Shown: positions 48,489 through 64,000 of the stretch, in pieces | Layout: the number at the start of each line of letters is the position of its first letter | Numbering within the stretch: position 1 is the stretch's first letter | Origin: Spirochaetes bacterium GWB1_60_80 | GTDB lineage: Bacteria; Spirochaetota; Spirochaetia; Treponematales; UBA12059 | Length of the DNA stretch: 64,000 bases | Reading direction: 5' to 3' | Assembly: GCA_001829185.1 (NCBI GenBank) | Contig: MIAR01000045.1 | Coordinates: 33,440 to 97,439 of the forward strand | Notes under the pieces: generated by a model | The model's input: only the letters and a program-made list of their open reading frames with translations | Told to the model about the DNA's origin: nothing | The model's database searches: none | Made by a program: the position numbers and the translations under genes

Positions 48489-48608
48489 AGTATTTCTTCT
48501 CCTTTGACGTACGGTTTTTCTTGATTGGCCGGCCATGCGCTCGTTTCACCGGTAGCCATTGCATACCGGTGTTGTGGCCCCAGTCTTTGCGAATTGCATT
48601 GGGGCCTG

Positions 48609-48862
48609 TCACCAAGGGAATTTGGTTGGCTCTTTACGAAACTGCACCGCCCGTTCATTCTCGATCTTGCCCCCGCGGCAATGATTGACTGCAGATTGTC
48701 GTGGTCAATCCCGCGTTTAATTTCCCGGCTGCCCTCAGCTTGAACTATTAAGTATTTCTTAATAGTTGCCTCTCTTTCCTGCTCGTTGTCATCGTAAATA
48801 CGTTTCAGGTACTGATCGATGGCAGATACCTTGAATTCAAGTTCTAAGTGTTTCTTCCTTCC
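48609..48862 (-). pseudogene. remnant of a second RhuM-family gene (N-terminally truncated, frameshifted)
   Basis: The minus-strand translation ...ATIKKYLIVQAEGSREIKRGIDHDNLQSIIAAG is followed, in the +1 frame, by ENERAVQFRKEPTKFPW*. It parallels the RhuM core (YNLD.IIAVGYRV.S.RA.QFR). There is no start codon or RBS. Confidence 0.45.
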
Positions 48863-48919
48863 TCAATATGTCCTCGCGTCTCTCTTCCGCCGCAGCACAA
48901 GATGCGCGTAGGTGGGTCT

Positions 48920-51900: not shown

Positions 51901-52003
51901 CGCGGGCTTTATCCCACTCCAGGTTAGAACCGGAGTTCCAGCCACCGCGTACAAGAGTTTCCTGGATATAAGCTTCAAAGGCCATTTCTATGGTTGCTTT
52001 CAT
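48920..52003 (-). CDS. hsdR: type I restriction enzyme R subunit
   Basis: The ATG at 52003 follows AGAGG. Contains helicase motif I (QHSAGSGKTNSISW), the DEAH box (VIVDEAHSSQTG) and an N-terminal nuclease region. Confidence 0.9.
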   Translation of the reverse strand: MKATIEMAFEAYIQETLVRGGWNSGSNLEWDKARALFPNQVISFIQATQSDLWAQMEKLHGAELAVKLLETLLKERDAKGTLHIVRHGFKFYGKTFKLAYFKPAHGLVKETLELFAQNQIHATRQVACHPTDSSTVDMVLSLNGIPIATMELKNPATGQTWKHAVAQYKSDRDPRAPLFQFIKGAVVHFAVDPDEVFMATRLNKEKTFFLPFNRGSAPGEIDCGKGNPQHPSGHRTGYFWEDVLERESFLDIVGSFVFLQTSEEIVDDGAGGRKKVTKETMVFPRYHQLDAVRNLVRTARHEQAGNNYLIQHSAGSGKTNSISWLSHRLSSLHTATDAKIFDCVVVITDRRVLDKQLQDAIYQIEHAQGVVKAIDENSRQLSEALIDGTKIVITTLQKFPFILRGLLHIAGADNPDNPDEAAIAKAKEWQEAIAARRYAVIVDEAHSSQTGETARELKRILGAGTDQGTEESELDWEDGLNKVMESRGKQKNLSFFAFTATPKGKTLELFGRKGASGKPEAFHTYSMKQAIEEGFILDVLQRYTTYKTYFKLVKSVEDDPAMPKKKAQKKLGKFMALHPHNIEQKTEIMVEHFREHVKHKLGGRAKAMVVTGSRLHAVRYMLAFQRYIEENNYSDIRPLVAFSGTVTDPETDKEYTEPSMNSDVVTGKTISESQLPDKFDSSDYQVLLVANKYQTGFDQPLLCAMYVDKRLDGVQAVQTLSRLNRTSAGKEPPFVLDFVNESEDIYKAFKPYYNVTTLDEPSDPSHLELLKHELNAFQVYLWSEVVGFCHVFYLPQYQQNPSDHARMEKMVAPAVDRFKALDEVQKESFYEKITAYTSFYSFISQIIPYSDQELEMLYSYCRYLIPHLDLGEDGVNPHPEKEVVLQYYRLEKVMSGSIIMEGGDQYGVKSPTAVGTGKSKDEDKPLSEIIQALNDRFGTDFSEEDRLFFEQIKEKAAKDERIIQTALANPLDKFELGIKAIIESLMMQRMADNDGIVTRYMDDSNFQKTIFPILAREIYSSILQKQE

Positions 52004-52015
52004 GGTGCCTCTTTT

Positions 52016-52066
52016 GTTCTCATAAGATCTCATAAGATCTCATAAGTTCTCATAAGTTCTCATAAA
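52016..52066. repeat. 10-bp tandem repeat, about 5 copies, in the 56-bp gap upstream of hsdR
   Basis: CATAAGATCT x2, CATAAGTTCT x2, then CATAAATCAA, preceded by a partial GTTCT. The stop codon of the upstream gene (52060-52062) lies inside the last copies. Confidence 0.85.
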
Positions 52067-53742
52067 TCAACGAGAATATATTTAGGTTTATTTGTTGTAC
52101 CAGCGTTACTTATTCTGTTCGAATTTCTCAACGACCCAAGTAGATTTCCAATTTTGTTGTCCTTTTGTTCATCCGTAAGGATTTCGGGCAACTTGCTCAG
52201 CAATAAGTGGTCAATGTCTCTACGGGTGGCTGATCCATATGTCTTCAGGAAATCAATAATCAGAAGGCGATAGTGATCATCATCGAAACCGCGATGTTTG
52301 ACATACTGGGCCTTCATTTGACCGTCTTGAGTACTAGCGGCGACATTGGATGATATAAAAAAATTGGGGCGTCGGCCTTCAATCAACCCCAATTGTCGCA
52401 AATGCTTGATGCTTTCTTCGCTGATACTTTGCTTTTTCTGGACCTTATCTAAAAGGATGATTTCATCCAACGTCAAGGATGGATTTCGAGCCAAGACCCG
52501 AGCGAATTCCAAATCCAGAACCTTGCCGATGATGGAGACTCGAACTTTTTCCGAATCCAGCTCATATTCCGGCAATGGGAAGAAGCGGTTTCTCTGGAAC
52601 CCAAACATCTTCTTTATACCACCGCCGGCGGTATCGACCATTTTGAGGTTGAACATGGCGTTAGCCAGGAACGGATTGCGATACGCTTCTTCCGGAGCGT
52701 CATCCATAACAACCTTTTCCACCGATCCGGGAATAAAGCTACCGTAATTGGAAAAGATCAGCTCTTCATCCTCGATTTCGATGACATTGATACGGCCACT
52801 TTTCTGGTAATCTTGATGGGCAATGCAATTATTGAGGGCTTCACGAATGACGTATGGTTCATATTTTAATACTTCTTCGGGAAACAGTGTGCCTTCTTTG
52901 AGGTACCGGTATTTGAGATTGCGGATTTTAGCGTGCACCTTGTCGACGGCCAATAACAGCGGGATGGGGAAAATTTCGTAGTCTTTGTCATTGTTTGCCA
53001 AATCCTTCAGAACCCAGCGAATTTTTGCTTCGGCTGGGCTGATGTAGTGCTCCGCTTCTTCACGCCCAAGGAGGATGATGGCGGTGCGCGTAATCTTCCC
53101 CTTGATAGAAATTTTTGCTTTATTCAGGAAGGTGCTACCATCCCAAGTTTTTCCTTCTTCTGCTTTGTCGGGGAATTTGGAAAAAAAGTTCTCGCGGGCT
53201 TTTTGGATGGCAGCAGGATCAAGGTCGTTAAAAGTGGCTCCCGGGACAATGGCTGCAGTCCAATCAAGCGACAGGCTCTGAGCGCGAATTCTCTCGATTT
53301 CTGACAGGTTGAGAGGGGCGAGTTCCTCGCCATCGCGACCATAATAATGGCCTTTGAAGGAAACCGGAATGCCGCGAGGCGCCGGGGGAATCTGAAACAT
53401 GACAATGCGGCCCTCGGGTTTCTGTAACTCGAAAATCTCGATGAAGGTTATCCGATTAATGGTCTGTTTTGCGATTTCTCCCTTGAGGCTGTCGAGGTTA
53501 GCCCGGTTTTTCCGGTAACTGCTGCTGACAATAGTCCGTCCCTTATCTTTGATGCCAAAGACCAGCCAGGCAAAGGGGCAGTTTTTCAGGTTGGCTTCAT
53601 TTGATAAGGCTGAAAAGTAGGCGCCAATTTTATCAAACGCATAGTCATTCTTGGCTTCTTTAAATTCGAATAGCTCATTTTCGGCTGGCGCATTTCGCAA
53701 TTGCTGCAGAATCGATTCCAGCTGGGTGACATCAAAAGTCAT
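52060..53742 (-). CDS. AlbA_2 (Schlafen-like) DNA-binding domain protein with ATPase-like and wHTH regions (often mis-named RecG-like)
   Basis: The N-terminus ENELFEFKEAKNDYAFDKIGAYFSALSNEANLKNCPFAWLVFGIKDKG matches the AlbA_2 pattern. 560 aa, embedded between hsdS and hsdR. Confidence 0.75.
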   Translation of the reverse strand: MTFDVTQLESILQQLRNAPAENELFEFKEAKNDYAFDKIGAYFSALSNEANLKNCPFAWLVFGIKDKGRTIVSSSYRKNRANLDSLKGEIAKQTINRITFIEIFELQKPEGRIVMFQIPPAPRGIPVSFKGHYYGRDGEELAPLNLSEIERIRAQSLSLDWTAAIVPGATFNDLDPAAIQKARENFFSKFPDKAEEGKTWDGSTFLNKAKISIKGKITRTAIILLGREEAEHYISPAEAKIRWVLKDLANNDKDYEIFPIPLLLAVDKVHAKIRNLKYRYLKEGTLFPEEVLKYEPYVIREALNNCIAHQDYQKSGRINVIEIEDEELIFSNYGSFIPGSVEKVVMDDAPEEAYRNPFLANAMFNLKMVDTAGGGIKKMFGFQRNRFFPLPEYELDSEKVRVSIIGKVLDLEFARVLARNPSLTLDEIILLDKVQKKQSISEESIKHLRQLGLIEGRRPNFFISSNVAASTQDGQMKAQYVKHRGFDDDHYRLLIIDFLKTYGSATRRDIDHLLLSKLPEILTDEQKDNKIGNLLGSLRNSNRISNAGTTNKPKYILVDL

Positions 53743-55022
53743 ACCACCTCCCGCACATCTATCTTGCCAGTAACCGCCGAACTGATCAATGCCGTGCGGT
53801 ACTCCTTGAGCCGTTCGATAATGGTCGTCACCTTGGCCGAAAGCGCATCGATCTTGGCCGTTTCACGGTCGAGAAAAGCGGCGATGGCCTGCTGTTCGGG
53901 GAGAGGGGGGAGAGCAAAAGGGAAACTTGCAATCATTGGTCTTCTCAAGGAATCAACTGTTGATTTTGCACCGCCTTCAAGTGCTACTCTCCAGAAATTC
54001 TCTTTCAGGAAAAGGAAGAAGAACCTTCCAGTAACCTTCTTGAAATTACTAAATAAATAAACCCGTTGGTGGAAATCAAATTTCCCATCATAATAATGAA
54101 AAACTTTACCGACACCAACACCATCACCCGCAGTTAATACAGCCTCGCAGTTTTTTGTGAAGGAATTAATTTTCTCAACCGTTTGGGATCTTACGAAAAA
54201 TGGGTAATCTCCGTCATCTTCTGCATCAACTGTATCTTTATCCCCGGTTTCTATTCTGCAAATATAGCGTAGCGCCTTAATTTCCCAATGCTCCGGCACA
54301 TCCCCCAGCCACTCCACGCCGGAGGGTTTCAGCTTGCCCGATGTCTCCAGCCCCTTGGTGACCGCACGGGAAATCAGAGCTATACGCTGTTCGGCCAGCA
54401 GTTCCAGAAGCTTGATTTTTTTGGCGATGAGAGCGTCAATACGCCCGGTCTCACGGTCGAGAAAAGCAGCGATGGCTTGCTGTTCGGGGAGAGGGGGGAG
54501 AAGAATCAGAAAATCTTTTAAGTGACTTTGTCCCAATTTGACCATAGAACCATTCGCCCCCCTGGCAGATGACTCTATCTGGACTCTTCCCTCGCGTGTT
54601 AGTAAGAAATAGACAAGATAGAAACCATCAACTCTAGTGTTCTTAATTTTTAATCGATATATTAAGTCGGCAATAATCAAGTTCCGATAGGTTTCATTTA
54701 GGCAACATGAATCACCAACGAGTTCTGGTGTATTTGCTCTCGTAATCAATATGTCACCTTTTTCTGGAAATATTACGCCTTGGTCGAAAGGTATTTCTTC
54801 AATCATCTTATTTTCATGTGGCAAAAACTGCCCATGATTCACTGCACTAAGCTTAAGAACTCCCAATTCTCCTTCGTTTGCAGGTGTTGAATTAGCTTGT
54901 GGACTCCATCCTTGCTCAATAGAGTCAACTAGGAATCGCAATCTCTTTTCTTCCCAATGCTCCGGCACATCCCCCAGCCACTCCGCGCCGGAGTGTTTGT
55001 ATTTTGGATAGGGTTTATTCAT
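53739..55022 (-). CDS. hsdS: type I restriction enzyme specificity subunit (two TRDs)
   Basis: The ATG at 55022 follows GGAGG. The conserved regions are duplicated: LPPLPEQQAIAAFLDRET twice and GVEWLGDVPEHWE twice, the latter encoded by about 48-bp DNA repeats near 54282 and 54950. Confidence 0.9.
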   Translation of the reverse strand: MNKPYPKYKHSGAEWLGDVPEHWEEKRLRFLVDSIEQGWSPQANSTPANEGELGVLKLSAVNHGQFLPHENKMIEEIPFDQGVIFPEKGDILITRANTPELVGDSCCLNETYRNLIIADLIYRLKIKNTRVDGFYLVYFLLTREGRVQIESSARGANGSMVKLGQSHLKDFLILLPPLPEQQAIAAFLDRETGRIDALIAKKIKLLELLAEQRIALISRAVTKGLETSGKLKPSGVEWLGDVPEHWEIKALRYICRIETGDKDTVDAEDDGDYPFFVRSQTVEKINSFTKNCEAVLTAGDGVGVGKVFHYYDGKFDFHQRVYLFSNFKKVTGRFFFLFLKENFWRVALEGGAKSTVDSLRRPMIASFPFALPPLPEQQAIAAFLDRETAKIDALSAKVTTIIERLKEYRTALISSAVTGKIDVREVV

Positions 55023-55992
55023 CGCCCGCCTCCGTATCAATTCCAAAACGCGCGCGGTCATCTTCAATCAAGCGGATCAAGTCCTCTTCTTTGGGCAAAT
55101 AGAGCAAGTACTTGCTAGTAAACAAGTTCTTATTTTCGGATAAAACGGAATACTTGACCACGGTCTCATCCTTCTCGGTACAAAGAATCAGACCGATGGT
55201 CGGATTGTCATCGAATCCCTTTTTAAGATCTTCATACATCCGCACATACATATCCATTTGCCCAATATCCTGATGAGTCAATTTGTTGGTTTTCAGATCA
55301 ATGAGTACAAAGCACTTGAGATGATAGTTGTAAAAGACCAAGTCGATAAAAAAGTCGGAAGTATCGGTTACGATATGCTGTTGCCTGGCGACAAAAGCAA
55401 ATCCCTTGCCCAACTCCAATAAAAAACTTTGCAAATGATCGATCAAGGCGGTTTCGATGACTCGTTCATGATGTTTTCCCGATTGCTGCAATCCTAGAAA
55501 TTCAAAAATGTAAGGGTCTTTCAAGGATGTTGCGACTCCCTTGGTACCGGAAGACTCAACCGGCAAGCGGCGCTCAAAATACAAGGTGCTGATATTGCGA
55601 TCCAGGGTACGACTATTCCATCCTGCCTCGATGCTCTGGGTCAGGTAAAACTCTCTCTTGTTTTTTTCTTCTATTCTTGACAGGAGACGATAATGTGTCC
55701 AGCTCAATTCGGTACGCACTGCGTTCCAAATTGGAAAAGCTCGGTAAAAAGCCCTCATGTTGTTTAGATTGCGTTCATCAAACCCAGCTCCAAATTCTAC
55801 GGTCAAATCGCGAGCCAGTTCTTTTAAAAGGCCCTTGCCATAGAGAGCCCGTTTATCACCTTGACGCTCATCCTCGGTAATCAACTGGCCGATCTGCCAA
55901 TATGTTTCCAATAGGACTACGTTAACAGTTGTTGTCGCACGTTTTCGGGCTTGGTTAATGATCAAGGCTATGGCAGAAAAAAGCGGATTCAT
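55015..55992 (-). CDS. DUF1016 / YhcG-family PD-(D/E)xK nuclease
   Basis: The ATG at 55992 follows GGAGGGA, giving MNPLFSAIALIINQARKRA...YWQIGQLI... The nuclease core reads FFIDLVFYNYHLKCFVLIDLKTNKL. The upstream 150 codons of track ORF 55015..56442 overlap hsdM out of frame and are rejected. Confidence 0.8.
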   Translation of the reverse strand: MNPLFSAIALIINQARKRATTTVNVVLLETYWQIGQLITEDERQGDKRALYGKGLLKELARDLTVEFGAGFDERNLNNMRAFYRAFPIWNAVRTELSWTHYRLLSRIEEKNKREFYLTQSIEAGWNSRTLDRNISTLYFERRLPVESSGTKGVATSLKDPYIFEFLGLQQSGKHHERVIETALIDHLQSFLLELGKGFAFVARQQHIVTDTSDFFIDLVFYNYHLKCFVLIDLKTNKLTHQDIGQMDMYVRMYEDLKKGFDDNPTIGLILCTEKDETVVKYSVLSENKNLFTSKYLLYLPKEEDLIRLIEDDRARFGIDTEAGDE

Positions 55993-56153
55993 AACTTCCC
56001 TCCGCGTTTCCCGCGTCTCCGCGTGAAACTCTTGGTTTGGCCATCGGCAGCTTCCAGTTTCAGTTGGTGACAATTTGTCACCGACTCGCTGCCCTCTTTC
56101 TTCAATCGTTCTTTCAGCTTGTTCCAGTTTTTGCGGGCTGCTTCTTGGCTCAT
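55989..56153 (-). CDS. 54-aa basic ORF, translationally coupled to both neighbours
   Basis: Not in the ORF track. I translated it by hand as MSQEAARKNWNKLKERLKKEGSESVTNCHQLKLEAADGQTKSFTRRRGKRGGKL. Its ATG overlaps the hsdM stop (ATGA, 56153-56150) and its TGA overlaps the DUF1016 ATG (ATGA, 55992-55989). Confidence 0.4.
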   Translation of the reverse strand: MSQEAARKNWNKLKERLKKEGSESVTNCHQLKLEAADGQTKSFTRRRGKRGGKL

Positions 56154-58255
56154 TGTAAGCCCTCGCTACTGCCGGTAAGCTCGGCCAGCATGGCGACAAT
56201 CTCACCTTCCAGAGCTTTAACATCGGCGGCAATGGCTTCCAGGGCGCGGGGTGGTTCGTAGCGGTAAAAATGGCGGTTGAGTGGAATCTCGTAACCCACC
56301 TTGGTTTTGCTATGGTCAATCCAGGCATCGGGTACATGGGGCAGGACTTCACGCTTGAAGTATTCCTCGATATTTTCCTTGAGCGGCACATTCTCGGTAT
56401 CGCGCAAGTCGGCATCGGCTTCGGGATTACCCTTGGCATCACGGCAGATTTCGGCAGTCTCGTCCTTTTCGCTCAGGGCTTCCAAAACTGCTTTCAGCTC
56501 TGGTGCCGACAAGCGCACGCCAGACTTTTGATCGATGGCTTTAAGTTCTTTCAAGAAGACGATGCGGTCTTTGAAAAGTTTCCCGGCGGTGGCTTTCTGC
56601 AAGTCAACAAGCATAGTTTTAAGCGCGGTTTGACGTTTTTTCCCGGCGGCCTCTTCTTGCAGCTTAACCGCCATATTTTTCTTGTCGCTTTCGGCAATTT
56701 TCTGAAAGGCACGCAGGTCGTCCAGAAGGGCGATACGTGCAGCGTTGGCCTGAAAGTTGAGGCGCAAGGGTCGTTCTACTGTGATCTTGTTGTAGCCAAA
56801 ATCATTGTTGTCAAAAATCTTGCTGACGATCAACTGCTTTTTCACGCCATCTACTATAATAGTGCGGGCTTCGTTGTGCTTGAATTTGCCATAAATCTTG
56901 CTCAGTTCGGCAATCTGATCCGGCCGGTTTTCCTCGCCATCGCCAATCTGGTTACGCTTGTTACCCAGGCTCTTGCGCATTTTGACGAAGAATTCCCGGC
57001 CATCAATTAGCTGAATCTTGCCGGTGCGGCGTTTTTCCTTGCGGTTGGTGACAATCCAGATATAGGTAGAAATGCCGGTATTATAGAAAAGCTGATCTGG
57101 CAAGGCGACAATAGCTTCCAGCCAGTCGTTCTCGATAATCCACTGGCGGATATTGGATTCGCCGCTCCCGGCATCGCCAGTAAAGAGTGGCGAACCATTA
57201 AAAACGATACCGATACGGCTGCCACCCTCGTCGGGACTGCGCATCTTGGAAATCATGTGCTGGAGGAACAGAAGCGAACCGTCATTGATACGGGGAGTGC
57301 CCGCGCCAAAGCGGCCATCATAGCCAAGGGTAGCTGCTTCATTTTCGATTGACTTCTGCTGTTGCTTCCATTCCACGCCAAAGGGTGGATTGGCCAGCAT
57401 GTAGTCGAACTTATCCTTGGGAAAACCATCTTTCTCAAACGTACAGTCCGGCTTGATGTTGTCGGAGTCTTCACCCTTGATGAGCATATCCGCCCGGCAG
57501 ATGCCATAGGCTTCATCGTTCCAGTCCTGACCAAACAGGTGCGGCTGTGCCTGGCTGTTTAATTTTCGAATATAATCCTCGGCCACGGAAAGCATACCAC
57601 CAGTACCGCAGGCCGGGTCATAGATGGTTTTTACCACGTGGCTTTTACGCAGGTCAGTTTCCGGCGAAAGTAGGAGATTGACCATCAGCTTGATGACTTC
57701 ACGCGGGGTGAAGTGTTCTCCAGCTTCTTCGTTCGATTGCTCCGCGCCGATGCGGATCAGCTCTTCAAATACATAGCCCATTTGCAGGTTATCGATATTG
57801 GCTGGCGACAGATCGACTTCATCGGATGCAAACTTCTTGACCACATTAAACAGCAGGTTTTTCTCGTTCATCTTGGTTACTTGAAGACCGAATTCAAGCT
57901 TTTCAAAAATCTGGCGTACATTGGGCGAAAATGAATTGATATAGCTATTCAGGTTTGGCGCAATCTGGTTCGGATCATCCAGCAGCTTCTTGAAGGTAAG
58001 CTTGGATAGATTGTAAAACGGCACTCCAGTAATAGTTCTCAGCTTGGCACTGATAATGTTCTCGGATTTGCCCTTGAACTTATCAAATTCCGCGAGTACT
58101 TTGGCCTTACTAGGCTCAAGGATACAATCGAAACGGCGCAGGATGGTTAAGGGGAGAATGACTTTCCGGTATTCATTACGCTTATATGGTCCACGGAGCA
58201 GATTGCAAATACTCCAGATAAAATTGGCTGTCTGCTGATGTGTCTGTACTGACAT
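56150..58255 (-). CDS. hsdM: type I restriction-modification N6-adenine DNA methyltransferase subunit
   Basis: Contains DPACGTGGML (SAM binding), LANPPFG (catalytic NPPF) and an N-terminal HsdM_N region. 701 aa. Confidence 0.95.
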   Translation of the reverse strand: MSVQTHQQTANFIWSICNLLRGPYKRNEYRKVILPLTILRRFDCILEPSKAKVLAEFDKFKGKSENIISAKLRTITGVPFYNLSKLTFKKLLDDPNQIAPNLNSYINSFSPNVRQIFEKLEFGLQVTKMNEKNLLFNVVKKFASDEVDLSPANIDNLQMGYVFEELIRIGAEQSNEEAGEHFTPREVIKLMVNLLLSPETDLRKSHVVKTIYDPACGTGGMLSVAEDYIRKLNSQAQPHLFGQDWNDEAYGICRADMLIKGEDSDNIKPDCTFEKDGFPKDKFDYMLANPPFGVEWKQQQKSIENEAATLGYDGRFGAGTPRINDGSLLFLQHMISKMRSPDEGGSRIGIVFNGSPLFTGDAGSGESNIRQWIIENDWLEAIVALPDQLFYNTGISTYIWIVTNRKEKRRTGKIQLIDGREFFVKMRKSLGNKRNQIGDGEENRPDQIAELSKIYGKFKHNEARTIIVDGVKKQLIVSKIFDNNDFGYNKITVERPLRLNFQANAARIALLDDLRAFQKIAESDKKNMAVKLQEEAAGKKRQTALKTMLVDLQKATAGKLFKDRIVFLKELKAIDQKSGVRLSAPELKAVLEALSEKDETAEICRDAKGNPEADADLRDTENVPLKENIEEYFKREVLPHVPDAWIDHSKTKVGYEIPLNRHFYRYEPPRALEAIAADVKALEGEIVAMLAELTGSSEGLQ

Positions 58256-58290: not shown

Positions 58291-58347
58291 CTTAAGCCCA
58301 CTAAGGACTTGGCGCGATTCGCCGAGCGCTAATGACATTCTTAGGGG
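58291..58347 (-). repeat. truncated attC-like remnant next to the hsdM start
   Basis: CTTAAGCCCACTAAGGACTTGGCGCGATTCGCCGAGCGCTAATGACATTCTTAGGGG aligns with the central part of the 62759-62865 element (TGGCGCGATTCTTGCCAAGCGTAGCGATAGCAC...) but lacks both canonical ends. Confidence 0.3.
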
Positions 58348-58405
58348 CGCGTTCGATTAAACCACATCTTCCTTTTCCTTTGCCTAACGCCGCGAAAGCG
58401 GCAGC

Positions 58406-58514
58406 CTCTAACATTTGCTCAAGCGGCAACGCGTATATGGCGTGATTTTGTCAAGCCAAGCTCCGACAGCAAGAATCGTGCCATAGCCGAGTCAAATTAA
58501 AGCAGTTGTTAGCT
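58406..58514 (-). repeat. attC-like site A (109 bp), 3' of cassette ORF 58518-59951
   Basis: Read on the minus strand: AGCTAAC-AACTG-CTTTAAT...CTTGAGC-AAAT-GTTAGAG. It starts 4 nt after the stop codon. A perfect GTTAGGC lies 18 nt further on (58388-58382). Confidence 0.5.
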
Positions 58515-58517
58515 TTC

Positions 58518-59951
58518 TTACATTACTAATGCATCAAAAACACTCTTTAGGTAATCATATTTTGGCATATAGTATTCTTCTAAAACATTTTCTACCATTT
58601 TCTCTAAATCACTATCATCTAAGCCTATTATGAATCCTCTACCGTCATTTGCAGTATCTTTGCATCTTTGTCTAAATATTTCTTTGTTCTCAATTGATCT
58701 ACATACTAATATTCCACACCTTCCACGTTCACGTGAAAAACGACCTGATAATTGATCTATTTCTGGGTTTACTGGATCAGTTGTATAATTCTTACATTCA
58801 ATATGCATATATGGAGCATTGTAATTAACAGCTAACCATTTGAAAAAACCATCAACTGCAGAATTTGTATATGTGATATCAATCCTCTTCCTTCCTTGAT
58901 GTATCTCATTTTGTACTTTTGGATTTGTTAAACTCGGGTAACAAATGGCTGTGAGAAATTTTTCTATTTCTTCTTCATATAATGAAGCATTTCCTCTTCC
59001 TGCAGGCACATTTTTTACAGCCTGTAATAGTTCTAAAAAGTTAGGTGATTCATCTGGTTTGTAATCAACAATTTCCTGATTACTTAATGGAGCTGATACT
59101 TGGGTGCTCTTAAATCTTCTATATCGCTCAAGTATTTCTGGATGCTTTTGACTGTATCTTACCATCATTTCTTTTCCAGAACCATATTTCAATTTGACAT
59201 CTTTTTTAAACACCCTTTTTCTACCACTTTTCAGTACAACTATCAAACTAGAATTATCTGCTAATTCTTTTTCTCGTAAGAAATCTAGTATAAAATGCCT
59301 ATAATACTCGTCTTCATCATAATGCATTGATTTTCTAACAATTGCTTTCGGAACTAATAGAAGCTTTTTATTCTCAGGTAATGGTAGGCTTGTGTACTCG
59401 TTTTTCCAGATTTTATCTTCAGCATCCCATAAAGGACCAGAATTTACATCTGATTCTACTGGTATTCCATAAAATGCACATACTTCCTGTGTATATAGTA
59501 TCAATGCATCTCGTATTATATTTGTTGTAATATCTGAAATCCTATCATACGAAATTCCAGGTATTAGTAGTATGGTGTCTTCAAGATCTTCAATTAATCC
59601 ACTGGCTACGGCTTGACTTTGAGTTATTTTTTCCCAGACATCTCTAGATGATTGATCCCCAAGAGCCGTTCCATGTGATTCTCCAACAGACAAGCCCAAA
59701 TGGGTCTCATTCGGCTCTCGTAGAACATTTAATAACGAACGAGCTCTGTCATGATCGCCTGCTTTGATACTATTTAATACAGTATCAAAGAAACTTTGAA
59801 CTTGACTAACACAATAATTGCCCCATTCATTATTAAGCGATAGCAAAGCCTTTGGATCAATATACATTTTTACATCGGTTGAAATGTCTACATCAACAAA
59901 ATCAAGCGTTGGTTGTTTTCGTCCAAGATGGTAATACTTCGATACCTTCAT
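58518..59951 (-). CDS. cassette protein: unknown ~330-aa N-terminal region plus C-terminal Mrr-like PD-(D/E)xK nuclease domain
   Basis: 477-aa ORF of about 30% GC, with AAGGAGA upstream. The C-terminus reads GRKRIDITYTN...YMHIECKNYTTDPVNPEIDQLSGRFSRERGRCGILVCRS, which fits the D...E-x-K pattern plus the Mrr_cat downstream pattern. Confidence 0.75.
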   Translation of the reverse strand: MKVSKYYHLGRKQPTLDFVDVDISTDVKMYIDPKALLSLNNEWGNYCVSQVQSFFDTVLNSIKAGDHDRARSLLNVLREPNETHLGLSVGESHGTALGDQSSRDVWEKITQSQAVASGLIEDLEDTILLIPGISYDRISDITTNIIRDALILYTQEVCAFYGIPVESDVNSGPLWDAEDKIWKNEYTSLPLPENKKLLLVPKAIVRKSMHYDEDEYYRHFILDFLREKELADNSSLIVVLKSGRKRVFKKDVKLKYGSGKEMMVRYSQKHPEILERYRRFKSTQVSAPLSNQEIVDYKPDESPNFLELLQAVKNVPAGRGNASLYEEEIEKFLTAICYPSLTNPKVQNEIHQGRKRIDITYTNSAVDGFFKWLAVNYNAPYMHIECKNYTTDPVNPEIDQLSGRFSRERGRCGILVCRSIENKEIFRQRCKDTANDGRGFIIGLDDSDLEKMVENVLEEYYMPKYDYLKSVFDALVM

Positions 59952-59985
59952 AATATCTCCTTTTACATCCCTGCACGGATGGCCA

Positions 59986-60103
59986 AACTAACATTTGCAC
60001 AACCTGCAATCCTAAACCGATTGGCTTGCGCGGTCTGCGCCGAGCGCAGCGACTAGCACAAACCATGACAACAGGATTTGTCAGGCTGAAGCAGTTGTTA
60101 TGT
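59986..60103 (-). repeat. attC-like site B (118 bp), overlapping the last 23 nt of ORF 60081-61691
   Basis: Read on the minus strand: ACATAAC-AACTG-CTTCAGC...GTTGTGC-AAAT-GTTAGTT. Its central-right block is homologous to site C. Confidence 0.5.
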
Positions 60104-61691
60104 TAAATTTCTTAAGTAATTTATCAAACTCAATTTTATATTTAGAAGACAATATTTTATTTGTTGTTATATCGCTGTAATCTATACTATTTACTCTATC
60201 TAGATTTTCATATTTATTTTCCGAATACTCTTGTTTCTTTAATGTTGAAGTAATAATTACTTGACGGTGAAGTAATTTTAATCCATTAATCATTATTTGT
60301 TCTTTATGAGTCGAAATCTCACCTTCTCGAAAACTATCAATGATGATTGGAAATGGGATTTTTAAGATTTTAGCAATAGCAACTAATTTCGCATAATAGA
60401 ATATTTGCCCTTCACTTCCAGAAAATGTCTGCTTCATTGTTGTGAATAAAGAATCTATATTAATTTCTGAATGTGGATCAATTTTCAGATAATTACTAAT
60501 TAATTCACTAATTATTCTATTTATCAGTATTTTTCCCTTTTCTATTTCGGAATTAAAACTTTCATCGATTTCCTTTAATCTTTCCTCTAAATGACTTATT
60601 TCAACCTGATATTCACTAACCTTTAAATCACTATTAATATTTTCCAATATTACATCTTTATACAGTATTATATCAGATACTTCATCCGGTGATTCCTTAA
60701 GCAACTCTTGATACTTTGCCTGTAAAGAATTAATTTCTTGTGAATATTCAGTAATTAAGGTAAGACGATAATTTATTTGACTTGTTATTGAATCCAGTAT
60801 TTGCCTTCGTACAATATCATTTGTGATCTCAAAAGATAAATCGCCACTTTGATACACTATGCGATCGCTTCCACAATCTCCACAAATAATTTTACCTATT
60901 TCAATATTCTGATTTAATGATCGAAGTTCAGTAATTAAACTTTCTAGCTTTACTTTTCTAGAAAGCTCCCTATTTCGCTTATTAACTAATCCAGCAATTT
61001 GTTTATCGGCTTCTCTTAATTTTATTTCAAACTGTTGGAATATAATATTGGAAAAGCCCGGCTGTACACGCAAAGCCAAATCAGGGTTCATTTTGGAAAA
61101 TTGATTTCGCTTTAATAATCTACTTATTTTATTCTGAAATTCTTTTATTTTTTCTTTAACCTGTTTAATCTCATCCGGAGATGCTTTAACATCTTCCTTT
61201 CCAATGCATTTTACCATTTCAATGAAGTGCTCTTTATTTGTAAATCCTGGGTTTATAATATTAGAAGTATTTCTTTTATCCTGTGGTAGAAAAAACAGTT
61301 GAAAAAATAGTGACAAATCTGAATGGTAAATTTGACCATCGTAATGATAACGAGGCAGTTTATATATATGATTATTAAAAAACATTTTGAAATCGGAAGT
61401 ACTATCATAAATTGTTAAATTACCATCCTGCAAAACGCTAAATGTATTCTGCTTTCGCATTATTTCGACATACTTTCTTCCTACTTTAATTTTTATGTAA
61501 AAATATTGATTATAATCATCAAATGATGATGGAAATATTGGATTATTTCCCAAAGCATAAAGCAGAGCTTGGACCACGAGTGTTTTTCCGCGATTATTGT
61601 CATCACTAAAAATAATATTTATTCTATTTTGAAATCTGTTTTCAATAAACGCCTCGCTCCAATTACCAAAAGCTACAGTTTTTACAATCAT
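60081..61691 (-). CDS. ABC/SMC-like ATPase with coiled-coil insert (Lamassu LmuB / DUF3732-like)
   Basis: Has Walker A (SDDNNRGKTLVVQALLYALG) and a ~250-aa heptad-rich middle with CGDCGS. It also has an ABC signature-like motif (FSGSEGQ) and Walker B (FPIIIDSFREGE). ATGA overlaps the upstream gene. Confidence 0.6.
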   Translation of the reverse strand: MIVKTVAFGNWSEAFIENRFQNRINIIFSDDNNRGKTLVVQALLYALGNNPIFPSSFDDYNQYFYIKIKVGRKYVEIMRKQNTFSVLQDGNLTIYDSTSDFKMFFNNHIYKLPRYHYDGQIYHSDLSLFFQLFFLPQDKRNTSNIINPGFTNKEHFIEMVKCIGKEDVKASPDEIKQVKEKIKEFQNKISRLLKRNQFSKMNPDLALRVQPGFSNIIFQQFEIKLREADKQIAGLVNKRNRELSRKVKLESLITELRSLNQNIEIGKIICGDCGSDRIVYQSGDLSFEITNDIVRRQILDSITSQINYRLTLITEYSQEINSLQAKYQELLKESPDEVSDIILYKDVILENINSDLKVSEYQVEISHLEERLKEIDESFNSEIEKGKILINRIISELISNYLKIDPHSEINIDSLFTTMKQTFSGSEGQIFYYAKLVAIAKILKIPFPIIIDSFREGEISTHKEQIMINGLKLLHRQVIITSTLKKQEYSENKYENLDRVNSIDYSDITTNKILSSKYKIEFDKLLKKFNITTASA

Positions 61692-62743
61692 TTAATTCCC
61701 TCCAGAATTCTAGCAATGAAAAATGCTAAGTGTATTTGACTCAAAGTTGGAACCAAAGCTTTTAATCTTTCGGAAAGTCCATTTATATAAAAATCAATAT
61801 CCTCACTTTTATATTTTGTAATCATAACAATAATTTTCTCAAGCAGTTGCCATACTGCTTTTTTATTGATTTTATTAAACCATGTCCTTGAAAGTGCAGC
61901 ATTACAATCAAGAATAATGTCTTTTATTTCTTCCGAATCACTTGTTTTTAAGTACGGTAGAAATAATATTGGAATATTACACTGCGAAAACAATTCGATG
62001 CCAATGATCCGATTTACAAGAAGAGTAACAATTTCTGTTTTAGAGATAGTCTTCTCAAAATTTAATGCTTCTTGTATCGTATTAACATTCTTTCCTTCAA
62101 TATTGATGTTTTTTAATGCAGACTGCTTGTCCCGAATTTCATCAAAAACACGAGATAAAAATGAATCATCAGCAAACGAATTGGACTTAATGGGAATAAG
62201 ACCACTAAGTGATTTTGGTTTATCCGTAGACCAAACGATAAATTTTACAAATTTTAAAAAACCATCTATCTTTGTTTCGTCAAGTTTATCATCATCTTTT
62301 AATTTATTTCTTCGTCGTATTTCAGAAACAAGCCCGTTTCTAATTCTTTCTTGTGTAGATTTTTTAATACCATCAAAAGAAAATGTTTTATCCGATGGAG
62401 CTACTAAATAGCTTGTATCTATTTCTTCAAGTAGCAATATATACTCAAGAAATTCGAATTCCGAGCAAAAATTATCCCATAGTGTAAATAAAAAACTACC
62501 AATTTTCTTTGGATTAGGATCTTGATGACCTTTTGATTGAATATCCCAAAGATTTTGAGGAGGTAAATCACATCCAGTAACATCATTAAATGTATCAACA
62601 AGTACTGTTTCTATATTTTCATGTTCATTGTGAAATGCTAATAAAAACAACAGAGAAAAGGTTTCATATTCAGAACCTTTTTTCTTTGTCTTCTCTGTAT
62701 TTTTAAAGGTATATGATTTCAAGTGTATCTCCATTTTCACCAA
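61688..62743 (-). CDS. predicted PD-(D/E)xK (Cap4/DUF4297-like) nuclease plus helical domain (Lamassu LmuA-like effector)
   Basis: The N-terminus reads GSEYETFSLLFLLAF...ETVLVDTFNDVTGCDLPPQNLWDIQSKGH (an E...D...D-x-Q-x-K pattern). 351 aa. The start is GTG at 62743 or ATG at 62734. Confidence 0.5.
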   Translation of the reverse strand: MVKMEIHLKSYTFKNTEKTKKKGSEYETFSLLFLLAFHNEHENIETVLVDTFNDVTGCDLPPQNLWDIQSKGHQDPNPKKIGSFLFTLWDNFCSEFEFLEYILLLEEIDTSYLVAPSDKTFSFDGIKKSTQERIRNGLVSEIRRRNKLKDDDKLDETKIDGFLKFVKFIVWSTDKPKSLSGLIPIKSNSFADDSFLSRVFDEIRDKQSALKNINIEGKNVNTIQEALNFEKTISKTEIVTLLVNRIIGIELFSQCNIPILFLPYLKTSDSEEIKDIILDCNAALSRTWFNKINKKAVWQLLEKIIVMITKYKSEDIDFYINGLSERLKALVPTLSQIHLAFFIARILEGIK

Positions 62744-62758
62744 GCGCTGCAGGCGTCA

Positions 62759-62865
62759 ACCTAGCATTTGCTTAATTGGCAAAGCGTAAATGGCGCGATT
62801 CTTGCCAAGCGTAGCGATAGCACGAATCGTGACATAGCGTTGTCCCGTTGAAGCAGTTGTTAGGT
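62759..62865 (-). repeat. attC-like site C (107 bp), 3' of cassette ORF 62875-63816
   Basis: Read on the minus strand: ACCTAAC-AACTG-CTTCAAC...ATTAAGC-AAAT-GCTAGGT. It is about three-quarters identical to site A over its full length. L'' (GCTTCAAC) is one base longer than the complement of L' (GCTTAAT). Confidence 0.55.
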
Positions 62866-62874
62866 CTTTTTTCT

Positions 62875-63816
62875 TCAAACAAAATCATAAGTCTTATAAA
62901 GTTTTTGCTTATTTATTGCCATTCGGATAACGTCTTTTGTATCATTAAATATTGTGTCACTTGCTTTCCATTCATTTCTGGCAATATCAATAATTGGTTT
63001 AAATTCACTATTATCAACTTTATCCATGTCTTTAACTTTTACTGTATTTTTTTGTATTTTGACTCTTCCATCGTTTAATATAATTACAGGAATAATAAGA
63101 TCTTCTGTTTCAAAAGCAAGTTTTTGACCAACAGTATATTTACCGCTTTGAATATCTTTTAAAAGTGCACCTTCTTGTACATTTATTGCTTGAGATATTC
63201 TTTCCTGCAATAACAAATTCAATTCTTTATCATCAACAATCTTAGTTGTACGTGTCTTATTTATTAATGTCAAAACATATTTTGCCATTTGTCTGAATGT
63301 TTCTTGATAAGTATTTTTTTTGAATATTGACATTATTTCAAAAAATTTCTCATCCTCAATATTAATAGCCAGCGTTTTAAATATTTCACTGTCATATTCT
63401 ACTCTAAATTTTTCTTCTGGCCCTAAAAATTCGCGTACAAAACTCTTTTTAAGAAAAAATATATAGTCAGTACCATTTGAGAGTAAGCCATAATTAATAA
63501 AATCATGATATTTTATATATTTTTCAATTTGATTAATTAATGACTCATTTAATGAAGCGTTTAGTTTTTTTGCTTCAATGATTAGCTTATCGTCAACTAA
63601 AAAATCAAATCGATCAAATCTTTTATCACTAGTAAATTCATATTTCACATCCTGTAAAGCATCAAAACCCCAAATATGTTCAAGTAAGGGAATAAGTATT
63701 GCACATTCTACGCCTTTTTCATTCAAATTCGATGCTATTTCATTATTTTCTTTTGACAGCGCATCCTTTAGATAGCCAATTCTCTGTTTAAAACTCGATT
63801 CACCTGTAATCGCCAT
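62875..63816 (-). CDS. cassette protein: HsdR-N-terminal-like PD-(D/E)xK domain plus unknown C-terminal domain
   Basis: ECAILIPLLEHIWGF...RFDRFDFLVDDKLIIEAKKL...QIEKYI...GLLSNGTDYIFF matches the HSDR_N_2-type nuclease-fold pattern. AAGGAGA lies upstream. 313 aa, very AT-rich. Confidence 0.7.
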   Translation of the reverse strand: MAITGESSFKQRIGYLKDALSKENNEIASNLNEKGVECAILIPLLEHIWGFDALQDVKYEFTSDKRFDRFDFLVDDKLIIEAKKLNASLNESLINQIEKYIKYHDFINYGLLSNGTDYIFFLKKSFVREFLGPEEKFRVEYDSEIFKTLAINIEDEKFFEIMSIFKKNTYQETFRQMAKYVLTLINKTRTTKIVDDKELNLLLQERISQAINVQEGALLKDIQSGKYTVGQKLAFETEDLIIPVIILNDGRVKIQKNTVKVKDMDKVDNSEFKPIIDIARNEWKASDTIFNDTKDVIRMAINKQKLYKTYDFV

Positions 63817-63835
63817 ATAAATCTCCTTAAGGAAA

Positions 63836-63863
63836 AATATAAAACCTCAATGGTTTTTGTCAA
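63836..63863 (-). promoter_or_regulatory. cassette-internal sigma70-like promoter
   Basis: Read on the minus strand: TTGACA (63863-63858), a 16-nt spacer, then TATATT (63841-63836). It lies about 20 nt upstream of the AAGGAG/ATG of ORF 62875-63816. Confidence 0.45.
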
Positions 63864-63898
63864 ATTGATTTTCTTAATCCTGCGCCGCCGCAGGCTGG

Positions 63899-63945
63899 AC
63901 CTAACACTATTTACACTGATCTCATTATCCCTCTACTAGTTATGT
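63899..63945 (-). repeat. short attC-like palindrome D (47 bp) upstream of cassette 3
   Basis: Read on the minus strand: ACATAAC...(33 nt)...GTTAGGT, with a perfect GTTRRRY core. It is shorter than usual attC sites and its interior pairing is weak. Confidence 0.3.
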
Positions 63946-64000
63946 CTCAATCTTTCCCGTCCACCACTAATTCCCTACCATCTCACTCCCAAGATTGGGA

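What the first reader, a model, noticed from the sequence alone, without database searches (positions are those of the whole stretch)
58291..64000. Integron-type gene-cassette array with a private attC family in a high-GC chromosome
**Seen in the sequence**
- From 58.3 kb to the window end the sequence alternates between two kinds of block. Very AT-rich minus-strand coding blocks lie at 58518-59951, 60081-62743 and 62875-63816, at about 30% GC by eye against about 65% in the left 40 kb. GC-richer 107-118-bp spacers lie at 58406-58514, 59986-60103 and 62759-62865.
- Read on the minus strand, each spacer begins at or just after the stop codon with (A)CCTAAC, AGCTAAC or ACATAAC, then AACTG, then a CTTCAAC-like box.
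- Each spacer ends with a TTAAGC-like box, then AAAT, then GTTAGGT, GCTAGGT, GTTAGAG or GTTAGTT.
- That gives RYYYAAC...GTTRRRY inverse-core/core pairs with 4-5-nt spacers. The L'' box is one base longer than L' (GCTT[C]AAC versus GCTTAAT). This is the canonical attC layout.
- Sites A and C are about three-quarters identical end to end. Site B shares both ends and the block GCCGAGCGCAGCGACTAGCACAAACCATGACA (versus GCCAAGCGTAGCGATAGCACGAATCGTGACA in C).
- One ORF ends 23 nt inside its attC.
- Cassettes 1 and 2 have only about 25-35 nt and no promoter between the upstream core site and their start codon.
- A truncated copy abuts hsdM (58291-58347), and a 47-bp ACATAAC...GTTAGGT palindrome precedes cassette 3.

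**Inference.** This is the distal part of a chromosomal integron or CALIN. The cassette orientation places attI and intI to the right of the window.

**Established knowledge.** Sedentary chromosomal integrons carry lineage-specific attC families (for example Vibrio, and Treponema denticola). Recent reports show integron cassettes can encode anti-phage systems.
Basis: partly seen in the sequence, partly recalled or inferred. Interest (0 to 1): 0.88.

Follow-up and report, generated by a model that had tools for sequence, protein, structure and literature searches.

The report
Integrase-less integron cassette array of defence genes
Three AT-rich gene cassettes, each ending in a genuine integron recombination site of the type common in spirochaetes, sit without any integrase beside a restriction system in a high-GC spirochaete genome; this is a new example of known things, not a new kind of element.

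Summary
Three co-oriented 109-118-nt repeats (58406-58514, 59986-60103, 62759-62865) each close an AT-rich minus-strand cassette.

They are real attC sites. A covariance model built only from 68 non-window relatives scores them 62.7-87.3 bits (E 1e-11 to 1e-17). Nothing else scores in 74 kb of host DNA.

The family is not private:
- The exact boxes occur 233 times in about 60 other genomes, mostly Spirochaetota.
- One Treponemataceae MAG carries at least 115 copies over 183 kb.
- In six genomes family members lie next to a bona fide integron integrase.
- One integrase-identical pair of contigs diverges exactly at an R' box, which shows cassette turnover.

The host is itself a spirochaete, from Rifle aquifer MAGs of about 60% GC. 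No intI or intI remnant exists in the window or 10 kb to its right. The locus is therefore a CALIN, not the distal end of an adjacent integron.

The cassettes carry PADLOC defence candidates: PDC-M36A/DUF8370, a Lamassu-like PDC-M22A+B pair, and a PD-(D/E)XK-like protein. They extend a defence island holding a type I R-M system, RhuM-Fic and McrBC.

Verdict: new member of a known kind, of moderate interest. Two side observations may deserve follow-up: a conserved hairpin at cassette starts, and a uniformly 29%-GC cassette pool whatever the host GC.

The parts
63899..63905 (-). First cassette junction: core GTTAGGT, with the crossover between G63905 and T63904. To its right lies non-cassette DNA with no attI or intI similarity.
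   Evidence: The 23 nt GTTAGGTCCAGCCTGCGGCGGCG are 100% identical to cassette starts in the Treponemataceae MAG OY762953.2 and in Treponema sp. AS07. DNA further upstream gives only chance-level matches.
62765..63904 (-). Cassette 3 (1140 bp): 5' hairpin (63879-63894), promoter-like site (-35 TTGACA at 63858-63863, -10 TATATT at 63836-63841), 313-aa ORF (62875-63816) and attC site C.
   Evidence: ORF. Weak Pfam hits to HSDR_N_2 (2.5e-5) and PDDEXK_3. Best promoter-like match in the region, 11 of 12. Hairpin.
62759..62865 (-). attC site C: R'' ACCTAAC, R' GCTAGGT (GCT instead of GTT).
   Evidence: Covariance model R1 87.3 bits, E 3e-17. nhmmer 5e-23. Fold.
59992..62764 (-). Cassette 2 (2773 bp): two overlapping genes, 61688-62743 (351 aa from a TTG; gene callers prefer 344 aa from the ATG at 62722) and 60081-61691 (536 aa), plus attC site B.
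   Evidence: PADLOC PDC-M22A 1.6e-100 and PDC-M22B 1.4e-179; LmuB models 6.5e-18.
59986..60103 (-). attC site B: R'' ACATAAC, R' GTTAGTT. It overlaps the last 23 nt of the 536-aa ORF.
   Evidence: Covariance model R1 82.1 bits, E 4.5e-16. Fold z = -3.25.
58412..59991 (-). Cassette 1 (1580 bp): 5' hairpin (59966-59981), 477-aa ORF (58518-59951) and attC site A.
   Evidence: PADLOC PDC-M36A 1.7e-43. Precomputed Pfam DUF8370. AlphaFold2 model pLDDT 87, with only weak matches, all to PD-(D/E)XK restriction nucleases. Invariant D358, E385 and K387.
58406..58514 (-). attC site A: R'' AGCTAAC, R' GTTAGAG. The first bulged base is T instead of C.
   Evidence: Covariance model R1 62.7 bits, E 1e-11. 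nhmmer 1.8e-18.
58291..58411 (-). Remnant of a fourth cassette: a standard cassette 5' hairpin (58388-58405), a second GTTAGGC (58382-58388) and a decayed attC whose degenerate R' (AATAGGG) lies about 25 nt before the hsdM start.
   Evidence: Local similarity to the family scores 30 against shuffles 20.3 +/- 2.0, 0 of 200 shuffles as high. Hairpin. Not significant by covariance model or nhmmer.
44083..58255 (-). Adjoining defence island, not cassettes: hsdM (56150-58255), YhcG nuclease, hsdS (53739-55067), Schlafen/AlbA ATPase (52060-53742), hsdR (48920-52033), RhuM-Fic (47505-48536), McrB (45296-47539) and McrC (44083-45315).
   Evidence: Pfam and PADLOC. GC 48-60%. No attC found by the covariance model.

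Best explanation
Window 58.3-63.9 kb is a CALIN, a cluster of integron cassettes lacking an integron integrase. It holds three intact cassettes plus one decayed cassette.

**Shown**
- The attC sites belong to the family used by Treponema-type (spirochaete) chromosomal integrons.
- Related integrases sit next to this family and exchange cassettes at the R' box.

**Inferred**
- Each cassette was captured from a shared, uniformly AT-rich cassette pool. Capture used IntI-catalysed recombination of the folded bottom strand (here the window + strand) at G|TT of the R' box.
- The array either entered at a secondary (attG-like) site through an integrase acting in trans, or lost its intI and attI by deletion.
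- The cassettes are now fixed in a defence island of a roughly 60%-GC aquifer spirochaete.
- They are probably transcribed from a promoter inside cassette 3, reading through the attC sites towards the type I R-M operon.
- They serve as anti-phage genes: a DUF8370 nuclease-like protein, a Lamassu-like SMC-ATPase pair and a PD-(D/E)XK-like protein.
- They could move again only if an IntI is supplied in trans.
For: **attC identity**
- A covariance model built from 68 non-window members hits sites C, B and A at 87.3, 82.1 and 62.7 bits. Nothing else scores in 64 kb plus the 10-kb flank.
- The family structure has 27 pairs, 96.3% of cells paired against 80.9% in shuffles, and a covariation score of 0.401 against 0.135, exceeded by 0 of 500 shuffles.
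- Two bulged top-strand bases, C and A, sit 6 bp apart. This is the geometry of the canonical attC extrahelical bases.

**Integron association**
- Integrases scoring 420-455 bits on TIGR02249 (cutoff 265) lie next to family attCs in L026, L036, L043, L111 and L116.
- A sixth case is L131, Treponema sp. GWB1_62_6 from the same aquifer; its protein was retrieved as an IntI homologue, not scored on TIGR02249.
- intI is co-oriented with the cassettes in 5 of 6 loci, as described for Treponema (PMC3607928).

**Activity of the family**
- L132 and L137 are 99.9% identical over 9365 bp. They diverge exactly in an R' box into different cassettes.

**Scale**
- There are 233 exact-box copies outside the host, and at least 115 co-oriented copies in one MAG.

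**Composition**
- 209 family cassettes average 29.1 +/- 3.1% GC and their attCs 46.6 +/- 3.0%, whatever the host. The window values fit.

**CALIN status**
- No intI or intI pseudogene appears by tblastn in the window plus L001 (all E >= 0.13). The right flank is aminotransferase/GntR DNA at 61.6% GC.

**Not an artefact**
- Both junctions are identical in 10 fetched contigs from ENA, NCBI, JGI and Logan assemblies.

**Cassette nature of the genes**
- The 57%-identical full-length relative of cas1 that was examined (P0003) is itself a cassette, in an array of a different attC family (L128).

**Defence content**
- PADLOC hits support a defence role. A Lamassu-like two-gene cassette (brc128) is an experimentally confirmed precedent (10.1101/2024.07.02.601719).
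Against: - No integrase is present locally, and the rest of the host genome could not be scanned.
- All host contigs are 100% identical over 58-64 kb. No cassette gain or loss is seen at this locus itself.
- Site C has GCT instead of the conserved GTT (1 of 68 family members does). This may cripple excision of cassettes 2 and 3.
- IntegronFinder's general attC model and HattCI could not be run.
- The promoter call is a consensus match in AT-rich DNA, where the total number of matches is at chance level.
- The defence roles rest on PADLOC 'candidate' families that have not been tested experimentally.
- No homologue of the window's cassette proteins was found in about 600 kb of fetched arrays.
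Confidence: 0.85

Rival explanations
1. It is the distal part of a complete sedentary chromosomal integron. The intI and attI would lie further away on the same replicon (more than 10 kb to the right) or would have been split off by a rearrangement.
For: - Related spirochaetes from the same aquifer carry intI with this attC family.
- Half of all CALINs occur in genomes that encode IntI (PMC4889954).
- The remnants at both ends suggest the array was once longer.
Against: - Immediately upstream of the first cassette come 490 nt of non-coding DNA and then host-like genes at 61.6% GC.
- No attC, intI or intI pseudogene appears in 10 kb to the right or 58 kb to the left.
- By the operational definition (intI within 4 kb) it is a CALIN regardless.
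Confidence: 0.1
2. The repeats are a REP/MITE-like or terminator-type intergenic repeat family unrelated to integrons. Their resemblance to attC would be coincidental.
For: They are structured intergenic repeats of about 110 nt lying directly after stop codons. No integrase is present at this locus.
Against: - There are no copies elsewhere in 74 kb of host DNA.
- In other genomes the copies form long co-oriented arrays at about 1-kb spacing.
- Family members sit next to integron integrases in six loci.
- Array divergence begins exactly in an R' box.
- No T-run follows the stems.
Confidence: 0.02
3. It is an assembly chimera that joins a low-GC Treponemataceae integron fragment to a high-GC contig near 58.3 kb.
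For: GC drops abruptly from about 48% to 30%. Metagenome assemblies can be chimeric, and one copy of the contig is binned as 'candidate division Kazan'.
Against: - The AT-rich block is flanked on both sides by host DNA.
- Both junctions are base-for-base identical in contigs from at least four assembly pipelines and several runs.
- The same GC contrast is seen next to high-GC intI genes in L026, L131, L111 and L132.
Confidence: 0.02

Closest known systems
Treponema-type chromosomal integrons (T. denticola and relatives; PMC3607928)
   Same: - Spirochaete host.
- Canonical attC sites closing promoterless cassettes.
[quoted passage not shown]
   Different: - This locus has no intI or attI.
- The host is a roughly 60%-GC aquifer spirochaete, not an oral or gut Treponema.
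- I could not compare the sites with the published T. denticola attC consensus sequences, so identity with that particular attC type is untested.
[quoted passage not shown] 2016, PMC4889954)
   Same: - At least two co-oriented attC sites less than 4 kb apart.
- No intI within 4 kb (here none within 10 kb) and no intI pseudogene.
- A small number of cassettes, and cassettes unrelated to resistance genes.
   Different: Nothing essential. The particular features here are the position inside a defence island directly upstream of hsdM, and the decayed cassette remnants at the edges.
Defence cassettes of integrons: BRiCs in mobile integrons (10.1101/2024.07.02.601719) and defence 'biobanks' in Vibrio chromosomal integrons (Darracq 2025 and Getz 2025, cited in PMC12614218)
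   Same: - Cassettes encode compact anti-phage systems, including a two-gene Lamassu-like cassette (brc128).
- A defence-island copy with a pseudo-attC has been described.
   Different: - Here the systems are only predicted (PDC-M22, PDC-M36, a PD-(D/E)XK-like protein).
- The host is a spirochaete MAG.
- The 2.8-kb cassette is larger than typical cassettes.
- There is no platform Pc promoter.
Vibrio cholerae superintegron and its VCR attC family
   Same: A homogeneous attC family of about 110-125 nt is repeated more than 100 times in one chromosome (the OY762953.2 array).
   Different: - Different sequence family and phylum.
- Members of this family appear in hosts of 32-70% GC with an invariant cassette composition of about 29% GC.
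- Cassettes also carry a GAC plus GC-hairpin module just after R'.

Membership tests
Integron attC recombination site | Inverse core R'' (RYYYAAC) and core R' (GTTRRRY) that pair with each other | tested here: met
   - Site A: AGCTAAC / GTTAGAG.
- Site B: ACATAAC / GTTAGTT.
- Site C: ACCTAAC / GCTAGGT, with one deviation (GCT).
- The R stem is invariant in 68 relatives.
Integron attC recombination site | L''/L' stem separated from the R stem by an unpaired spacer, with extrahelical bases on the '' arm that mark the recombinogenic bottom strand | tested here: met
   - The consensus fold has a 2x2 internal loop followed by the L stem.
- Unpaired top-strand C (column 17) and A (column 25) lie 6 bp apart, which makes G and T on the + (bottom) strand.
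- In site A the first bulged base is T.
- The comparison with the attC of aadA7 is from my own knowledge.
Integron attC recombination site | A variable terminal structure conserved in pairing rather than sequence, and a total length of about 57-141 nt | tested here: met
   - The sites are 107-118 nt long.
- All 7 pairs of the distal helix show compensatory changes.
- The covariation score is 0.401 against 0.135 in shuffles and at most 0.108 when slid.
Integron attC recombination site | Detected by the general attC covariance model of IntegronFinder or by HattCI | not testable with these tools
   Rfam holds no attC family; the search of 40-64 kb found nothing relevant. A family-specific covariance model was used instead.
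Integron attC recombination site | Substrate of an integron integrase | not testable with these tools
   Only proxy evidence is available.
- Family members lie next to integron integrases in six genomes; five score above the TIGR02249 cutoff.
- Two arrays with an identical IntI diverge exactly in an R' box.
Complete integron | An intI gene (tyrosine recombinase with the integron-specific insertion) adjacent to the array | tested here: not met
   - tblastn with six IntI proteins against the window, L001 and L005 gives a best E of 0.13.
- Neither the motif scan of all ORFs nor the Pfam scans of selected ORFs found a tyrosine recombinase.
Complete integron | An attI site and a Pc promoter upstream of the first cassette | tested here: inconclusive
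   - The junction G|TTAGGT exists.
- The 490 nt upstream share nothing significant with the intI-cassette spacers of L026, L036, L043, L116 and L131.
- The only strong promoter-like site lies inside cassette 3.
CALIN | At least two attC sites on one strand less than 4 kb apart, with no integron integrase within 4 kb (PMC4889954) | tested here: met
   There are three attC sites spaced 1580 and 2773 bp apart on the same strand. No intI lies within 10 kb to the right or 58 kb to the left.
Lamassu defence system (cassette 2) | An LmuB SMC-like ATPase encoded next to an LmuA effector | tested here: inconclusive
   - The 536-aa protein matches LmuB models (6.5e-18) but matches PDC-M22B far better (1.4e-179).
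- The 351-aa partner matches only PDC-M22A and has no Pfam or PDB match.
REP/MITE dispersed repeats | Copies scattered through the genome in both orientations at non-cassette positions | tested here: not met
   No further copy occurs in 74 kb of host DNA. Elsewhere the copies are co-oriented in arrays; 115 of 115 lie on one strand in OY762953.2.

The most novel reading that the evidence does not exclude
Spirochaete-type integrons may form a distinct subtype with four features:
- Cassettes come from one pan-host AT-rich pool (29 +/- 3% GC in hosts of 32-70% GC).
- Every cassette carries a conserved GAC plus cUUCGg-type hairpin immediately after the R' box. This could be an extension of the recombination site, or an RNA element that stabilises or processes each cassette transcript.
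- Cassettes often bring their own promoter.
- Integrase-less arrays such as this one can therefore be domesticated as self-expressing modules of a defence island and co-transcribed with a type I R-M operon.
Probability: 0.25. Interest if true: 0.55.

Novelty: new member of a known kind. Interest (0 to 1): 0.38.

Why it matters
- **Reach of integron-borne defence.** It extends the recent finding that integron cassettes are a reservoir of anti-phage systems. That finding came from Vibrio and clinical mobile integrons; this case is an uncultured environmental spirochaete.
- **Fixation outside an integron.** It shows cassettes fixed in a classical defence island. This is one concrete route by which defence islands may grow.
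- **Candidate genes.** The cassette context flags three untested gene sets (DUF8370/PDC-M36A, PDC-M22A+B and a PD-(D/E)XK-like protein) as mobile defence candidates.
- **Clues to cassette origin.** Two family-wide features bear on the unsolved question of where integron cassettes are made: the constant 29%-GC cassette composition, and the hairpin at cassette starts.

Tried and rejected
- **Rfam.** A search of 40-64 kb found nothing relevant.
- **Donor arrays.** tblastn of the four cassette proteins against about 600 kb of fetched arrays gave no homologues, so no donor was identified.
- **Strain polymorphism.** Look-ups with the hsdM and cas3 proteins returned only contigs with the same arrangement, 100% identical. 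The one exception is a 56-bp deletion in cas1 in one sample.
- **Empty site and taxonomy.** A homologue search with the flanking aminotransferase found relatives no closer than about 50% identity (47% for the full-length fusion), which was uninformative.
- **Host intI.** A search with a spirochaete IntI returned no hit attributable to the host MAG. The best multi-source candidate, P0283, comes from other samples.
- **Metagenome scans.** Scans for cas2B relatives and for the upstream junction sequence both found nothing.
- **attI.** The 12-nt match ACATAACTAGTA between the region upstream of cassette 3 and the L043 spacer is at chance level (E=18). I do not claim an attI.
- **Giant array.** No intI was found at the ends of the fetched part of the OY762953.2 and OW818665.1 arrays; one end holds only an IS5/IS1182-like transposase.
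- **Solved structures.** PDB sequence searches with the four cassette proteins gave only chance hits, such as myoglobin.
- **Literature.** No paper mentions PDC-M22, PDC-M36 or DUF8370.


Full report
**1.

- From 58.3 kb to the window end, three minus-strand coding blocks alternate with three co-oriented repeats. The blocks are 58518-59951, 60081-62743 and 62875-63816, at 33.7%, 28.9% and 27.5% GC. The repeats are 58406-58514 (A), 59986-60103 (B) and 62759-62865 (C), at 47-50% GC. The left 40 kb is 63.7% GC.
- The boxes TAACAACTGCTT and GCAAATGYTAG occur only at these three places in 64 kb.
- Read on the minus strand, each repeat runs R'' (xxCTAAC or ACATAAC), AACTG, L'' (CTT[C]AA...), a long imperfect hairpin, L' (TTAAGC-like), AAAT, then R' (GTTAGxx). 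Site C has GCTAGGT.
- The 536-aa ORF ends 23 nt inside site B.
  - The '47-bp palindrome' at the right end has no fold at all.
  - The 'truncated copy' next to hsdM is not seen by profile methods. It is still more similar to the family than any of 200 shuffles.

**2. The repeats are attC sites of a large, structured family**

- A scan of one genome per species for the two boxes returned 115 stretches. These hold 233 copies outside the host, 194 of them distinct.
- An alignment of 68 diverse non-window members (A2) folds into the canonical attC shape:
  - an invariant R stem;
  - a small internal loop;
  - an L stem interrupted by a bulged C and, 6 bp further in, a bulged A;
  - a variable distal helix in which all seven pairs show compensatory changes.
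- On that structure 96.3% of cells pair, against 80.9% in shuffles and 23-46% when the partners are slid. The covariation score is 0.401 against 0.135.
- The two bulges correspond to G and T on the window's + strand. This is the position and spacing of the extrahelical bases that mark the recombinogenic bottom strand in model attC sites (comparison with the attC of aadA7 from my own knowledge). Cassette ORFs therefore lie on the top strand, as usual.
- A covariance model built from these 68 sequences scores sites C, B and A at 87.3, 82.1 and 62.7 bits (E 3e-17 to 1e-11). It finds nothing else in the window or in 10 kb beyond it. nhmmer agrees.

**3. The family belongs to integrons, mostly in spirochaetes, and is active**

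- About 60 genomes hold the family. Nineteen are labelled Spirochaetota (Treponema, Treponemataceae, Rectinema, Alkalispirochaeta and others) and carry about half of the loci and the largest named array. Many of the other hits are short contigs in MAG bins.
- The Treponemataceae MAG OY762953.2 has at least 115 copies, all on one strand, between 861 and 1044 kb. The median spacing is 1062 bp and the region is 32.5% GC.
- A motif scan followed by NCBIfam found integron integrases next to family attCs in L026, L036, L043, L111 and L116. They score 420-455 bits on TIGR02249 against a cutoff of 265.
- A sixth case is L131, Treponema sp. GWB1_62_6, from the same aquifer data set as the window's host.
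- In five of the six loci intI points the same way as the cassettes. This is the atypical layout described for Treponema integrons (PMC3607928).
- L132 and L137 carry an identical IntI. They are 99.9% identical over 9365 bp of roughly 70%-GC host DNA, intI and three cassettes, then diverge exactly in an R' box into different cassettes. That is the signature of IntI-mediated cassette turnover.
- The attC family is therefore not 'private'.

**4. Host, flanks and classification**

- Exact-sequence look-ups name the source as Rifle aquifer MAGs 'Spirochaetes bacterium GWB1_60_80 / GWD1_61_31 / GWF1_60_12' and 'Spirochaetaceae bacterium'. One copy is probably mis-binned as 'candidate division Kazan'.
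- To the right of the window come 490 nt of non-coding DNA, then an aminotransferase-GNAT gene, a GntR/MocR regulator and further genes at 61.6% GC.
- tblastn with six IntI proteins finds no intI or intI remnant in the window or this flank (best E 0.13). There is also no tRNA.
- Neither the motif scan of all ORFs nor the Pfam scans of selected ORFs found another recombinase.
- By the IntegronFinder definition (at least 2 attC sites and no intI within 4 kb; PMC4889954) the locus is a CALIN.
- Both junctions are base-identical in 10 fetched contigs from ENA, NCBI, JGI and Logan assemblies. A chimeric joint is therefore very unlikely.
- These contigs represent one clonal population, however, and no cassette presence/absence variation is seen at this locus. 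The only variant is a 56-bp deletion inside cas1 in one sample.

**5. Anatomy**

- Taking the crossover at G|TT of each R' box, the cassettes are:
  - cassette 3: 63904 to 62765 (1140 bp);
  - cassette 2: 62764 to 59992 (2773 bp);
  - cassette 1: 59991 to 58412 (1580 bp).
- The first junction, GTTAGGTCCAGCCTGCGGCGGCG, is identical over 23 nt to cassette starts in OY762953.2 and in Treponema sp. AS07. DNA further upstream has no significant similarity to the intI-cassette spacers of related integrons.
- After site A comes a standard cassette 5' end, then a decayed attC that ends about 25 nt before the hsdM start codon. This looks like the remnant of a fourth cassette.
- The strongest sigma-70-like match in the region (TTGACA, 16 nt, TATATT; 11 of 12) lies inside cassette 3, upstream of its ribosome-binding site. 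Cassettes 1 and 2 have only a Shine-Dalgarno sequence. No terminator-like site lies on the minus strand between the cassettes.
- Co-transcription of cas3, cas2AB and cas1, perhaps continuing into hsdM, is therefore plausible but inferred.

**6. Cassette content**

- Cassette 1 encodes a 477-aa DUF8370 protein.
  - It matches PADLOC PDC-M36A at 1.7e-43.
  - Its AlphaFold2 model (pLDDT 87.4) has only weak structural matches, all to PD-(D/E)XK restriction nucleases (MspJI, Nt.BspD6I, FokI; E 0.03-0.2).
  - D358, E385 and K387 are invariant in 51 homologues.
  - The 57%-identical full-length relative that was examined (P0003) is the last gene of a seven-repeat cassette array with a different attC family (L128).
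- Cassette 2 encodes PDC-M22A (1.6e-100) and PDC-M22B (1.4e-179). The latter also matches LmuB SMC-like ATPases (6.5e-18), so this is a Lamassu-like pair.
- Cassette 3 encodes a 313-aa protein with weak HSDR_N_2 and PD-(D/E)XK matches.
- To the left lie a type I R-M operon interrupted by YhcG and Schlafen/AlbA genes, then RhuM-Fic (PDC-S23) and McrBC. The CALIN is thus the outermost part of a defence island.

**7. Mechanism and rivals**

- Best explanation (0.85):
  - The cassettes were captured by a spirochaete-type IntI from a shared cassette pool.
  - They are now stranded without an integrase, either through integration at a secondary attG-type site (Loot 2024, cited in PMC12614218) or through loss of intI and attI.
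  - They are expressed from a cassette-internal promoter and act in phage defence.
- What is shown: the attC identity, the integron association of the family, natural turnover elsewhere, and the absence of a local intI.
- What is inferred: the route of arrival, the expression pattern and the defence function.
- Rivals:
  - part of a complete integron with a distant intI (0.10; not excluded, because the rest of the genome was unavailable);
  - a non-integron repeat family (0.02);
  - an assembly chimera (0.02).

**8. Comparison and novelty**

- Treponema-type integrons, CALINs and defence cassettes are all described. The last group includes a two-gene Lamassu-like cassette and a defence-island copy with a pseudo-attC (10.1101/2024.07.02.601719).
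- This locus is a new member of those kinds.
- Two family-wide features may be new, but they were only partly followed up.
  - Cassette bodies are 29.1 +/- 3.1% GC and attCs 46.6 +/- 3.0% in 209 cassettes, irrespective of host GC from 32% to 70%.
  - At least 60% of cassette starts carry GAC plus a short G+C-rich hairpin, often a cUUCGg-type loop, 5-6 nt after GYTAG. Shuffles give 9%, and there are 22 different stem sequences.

**9. Limits**

- IntegronFinder and HattCI could not be run.
- No experiment supports recombination, expression or defence at this locus.

Noticed in passing
window 63879-63894, 59966-59981, 58388-58405 (minus strand); family loci L007-L121: Cassettes of this attC family start with GAC plus a short G+C-rich hairpin, often with a cUUCGg-type loop, 5-6 nt after the R' GYTAG. 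At least 60% of 211 distinct cassette starts have it, against 9% of shuffles, and 22 different stem sequences occur. The first cassettes next to intI in L026, L036 and L043 have it too. Its function is unknown.
   Followed up: partly
loci L007-L137 and window 58412-63904: Cassette bodies of the family are 29.1 +/- 3.1% GC and their attCs 46.6 +/- 3.0% in 209 cassettes. This holds whatever the host GC, from about 32% to about 70% in L026, L111, L131 and L132. It points to a common AT-rich cassette source.
   Followed up: partly
L132:12592 / L137:9365: Two contigs with an identical integron integrase (P0283) are 99.9% identical for 9365 bp. They diverge exactly in the R' box of the third attC into different cassettes, which is natural cassette turnover in this family.
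   Followed up: yes
OY762953.2 861-1044 kb (L060 to L087): A Treponemataceae MAG carries at least 115 co-oriented attCs over 183 kb at 32.5% GC. An IS5/IS1182-like transposase lies at L087 6182-7306. No intI was found in the fetched 192 kb.
   Followed up: partly
window 59414-59469 (L125): One sample (SAMN03203003) has a 56-bp deletion inside the cassette-1 gene, splitting it into 160-aa and 269-aa ORFs. This is either pseudogenisation in a subpopulation or an assembly error.
   Followed up: no
L001 9660-9784, about 30-150 nt to the right of the window end: An inverted fragment, AACATAACCCCTGCTTCAGC, matches site B's R''-L'' at 18 of 20 positions (1 of 100 shuffles scores as high). A 7.2-bit covariance-model hit lies on the same strand. 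This may be a decayed inverted attC.
   Followed up: partly
L128 460-7551: The 57%-identical relative of the cassette-1 protein that was examined (P0003) lies in a seven-repeat cassette array. That array uses a different, GC-richer attC family (CATAACAAATCGTTGCAGTTG...CAACTGAACTCTATGTTA).
   Followed up: partly
window 48920-58255: The type I R-M operon is interrupted by a YhcG/DUF1016 PD-(D/E)XK nuclease gene (within the 55015-56442 ORF) between hsdM and hsdS. A Schlafen/AlbA_2 ATPase gene (52060-53742) lies between hsdS and hsdR.
   Followed up: no
window 58518-63816 (proteins KKW25285-KKW25289): NCBI also holds these identical proteins under 'candidate division Kazan bacterium GW2011_GWC1_52_13'. 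This is probably a mis-binned copy of the spirochaete contig.
   Followed up: no
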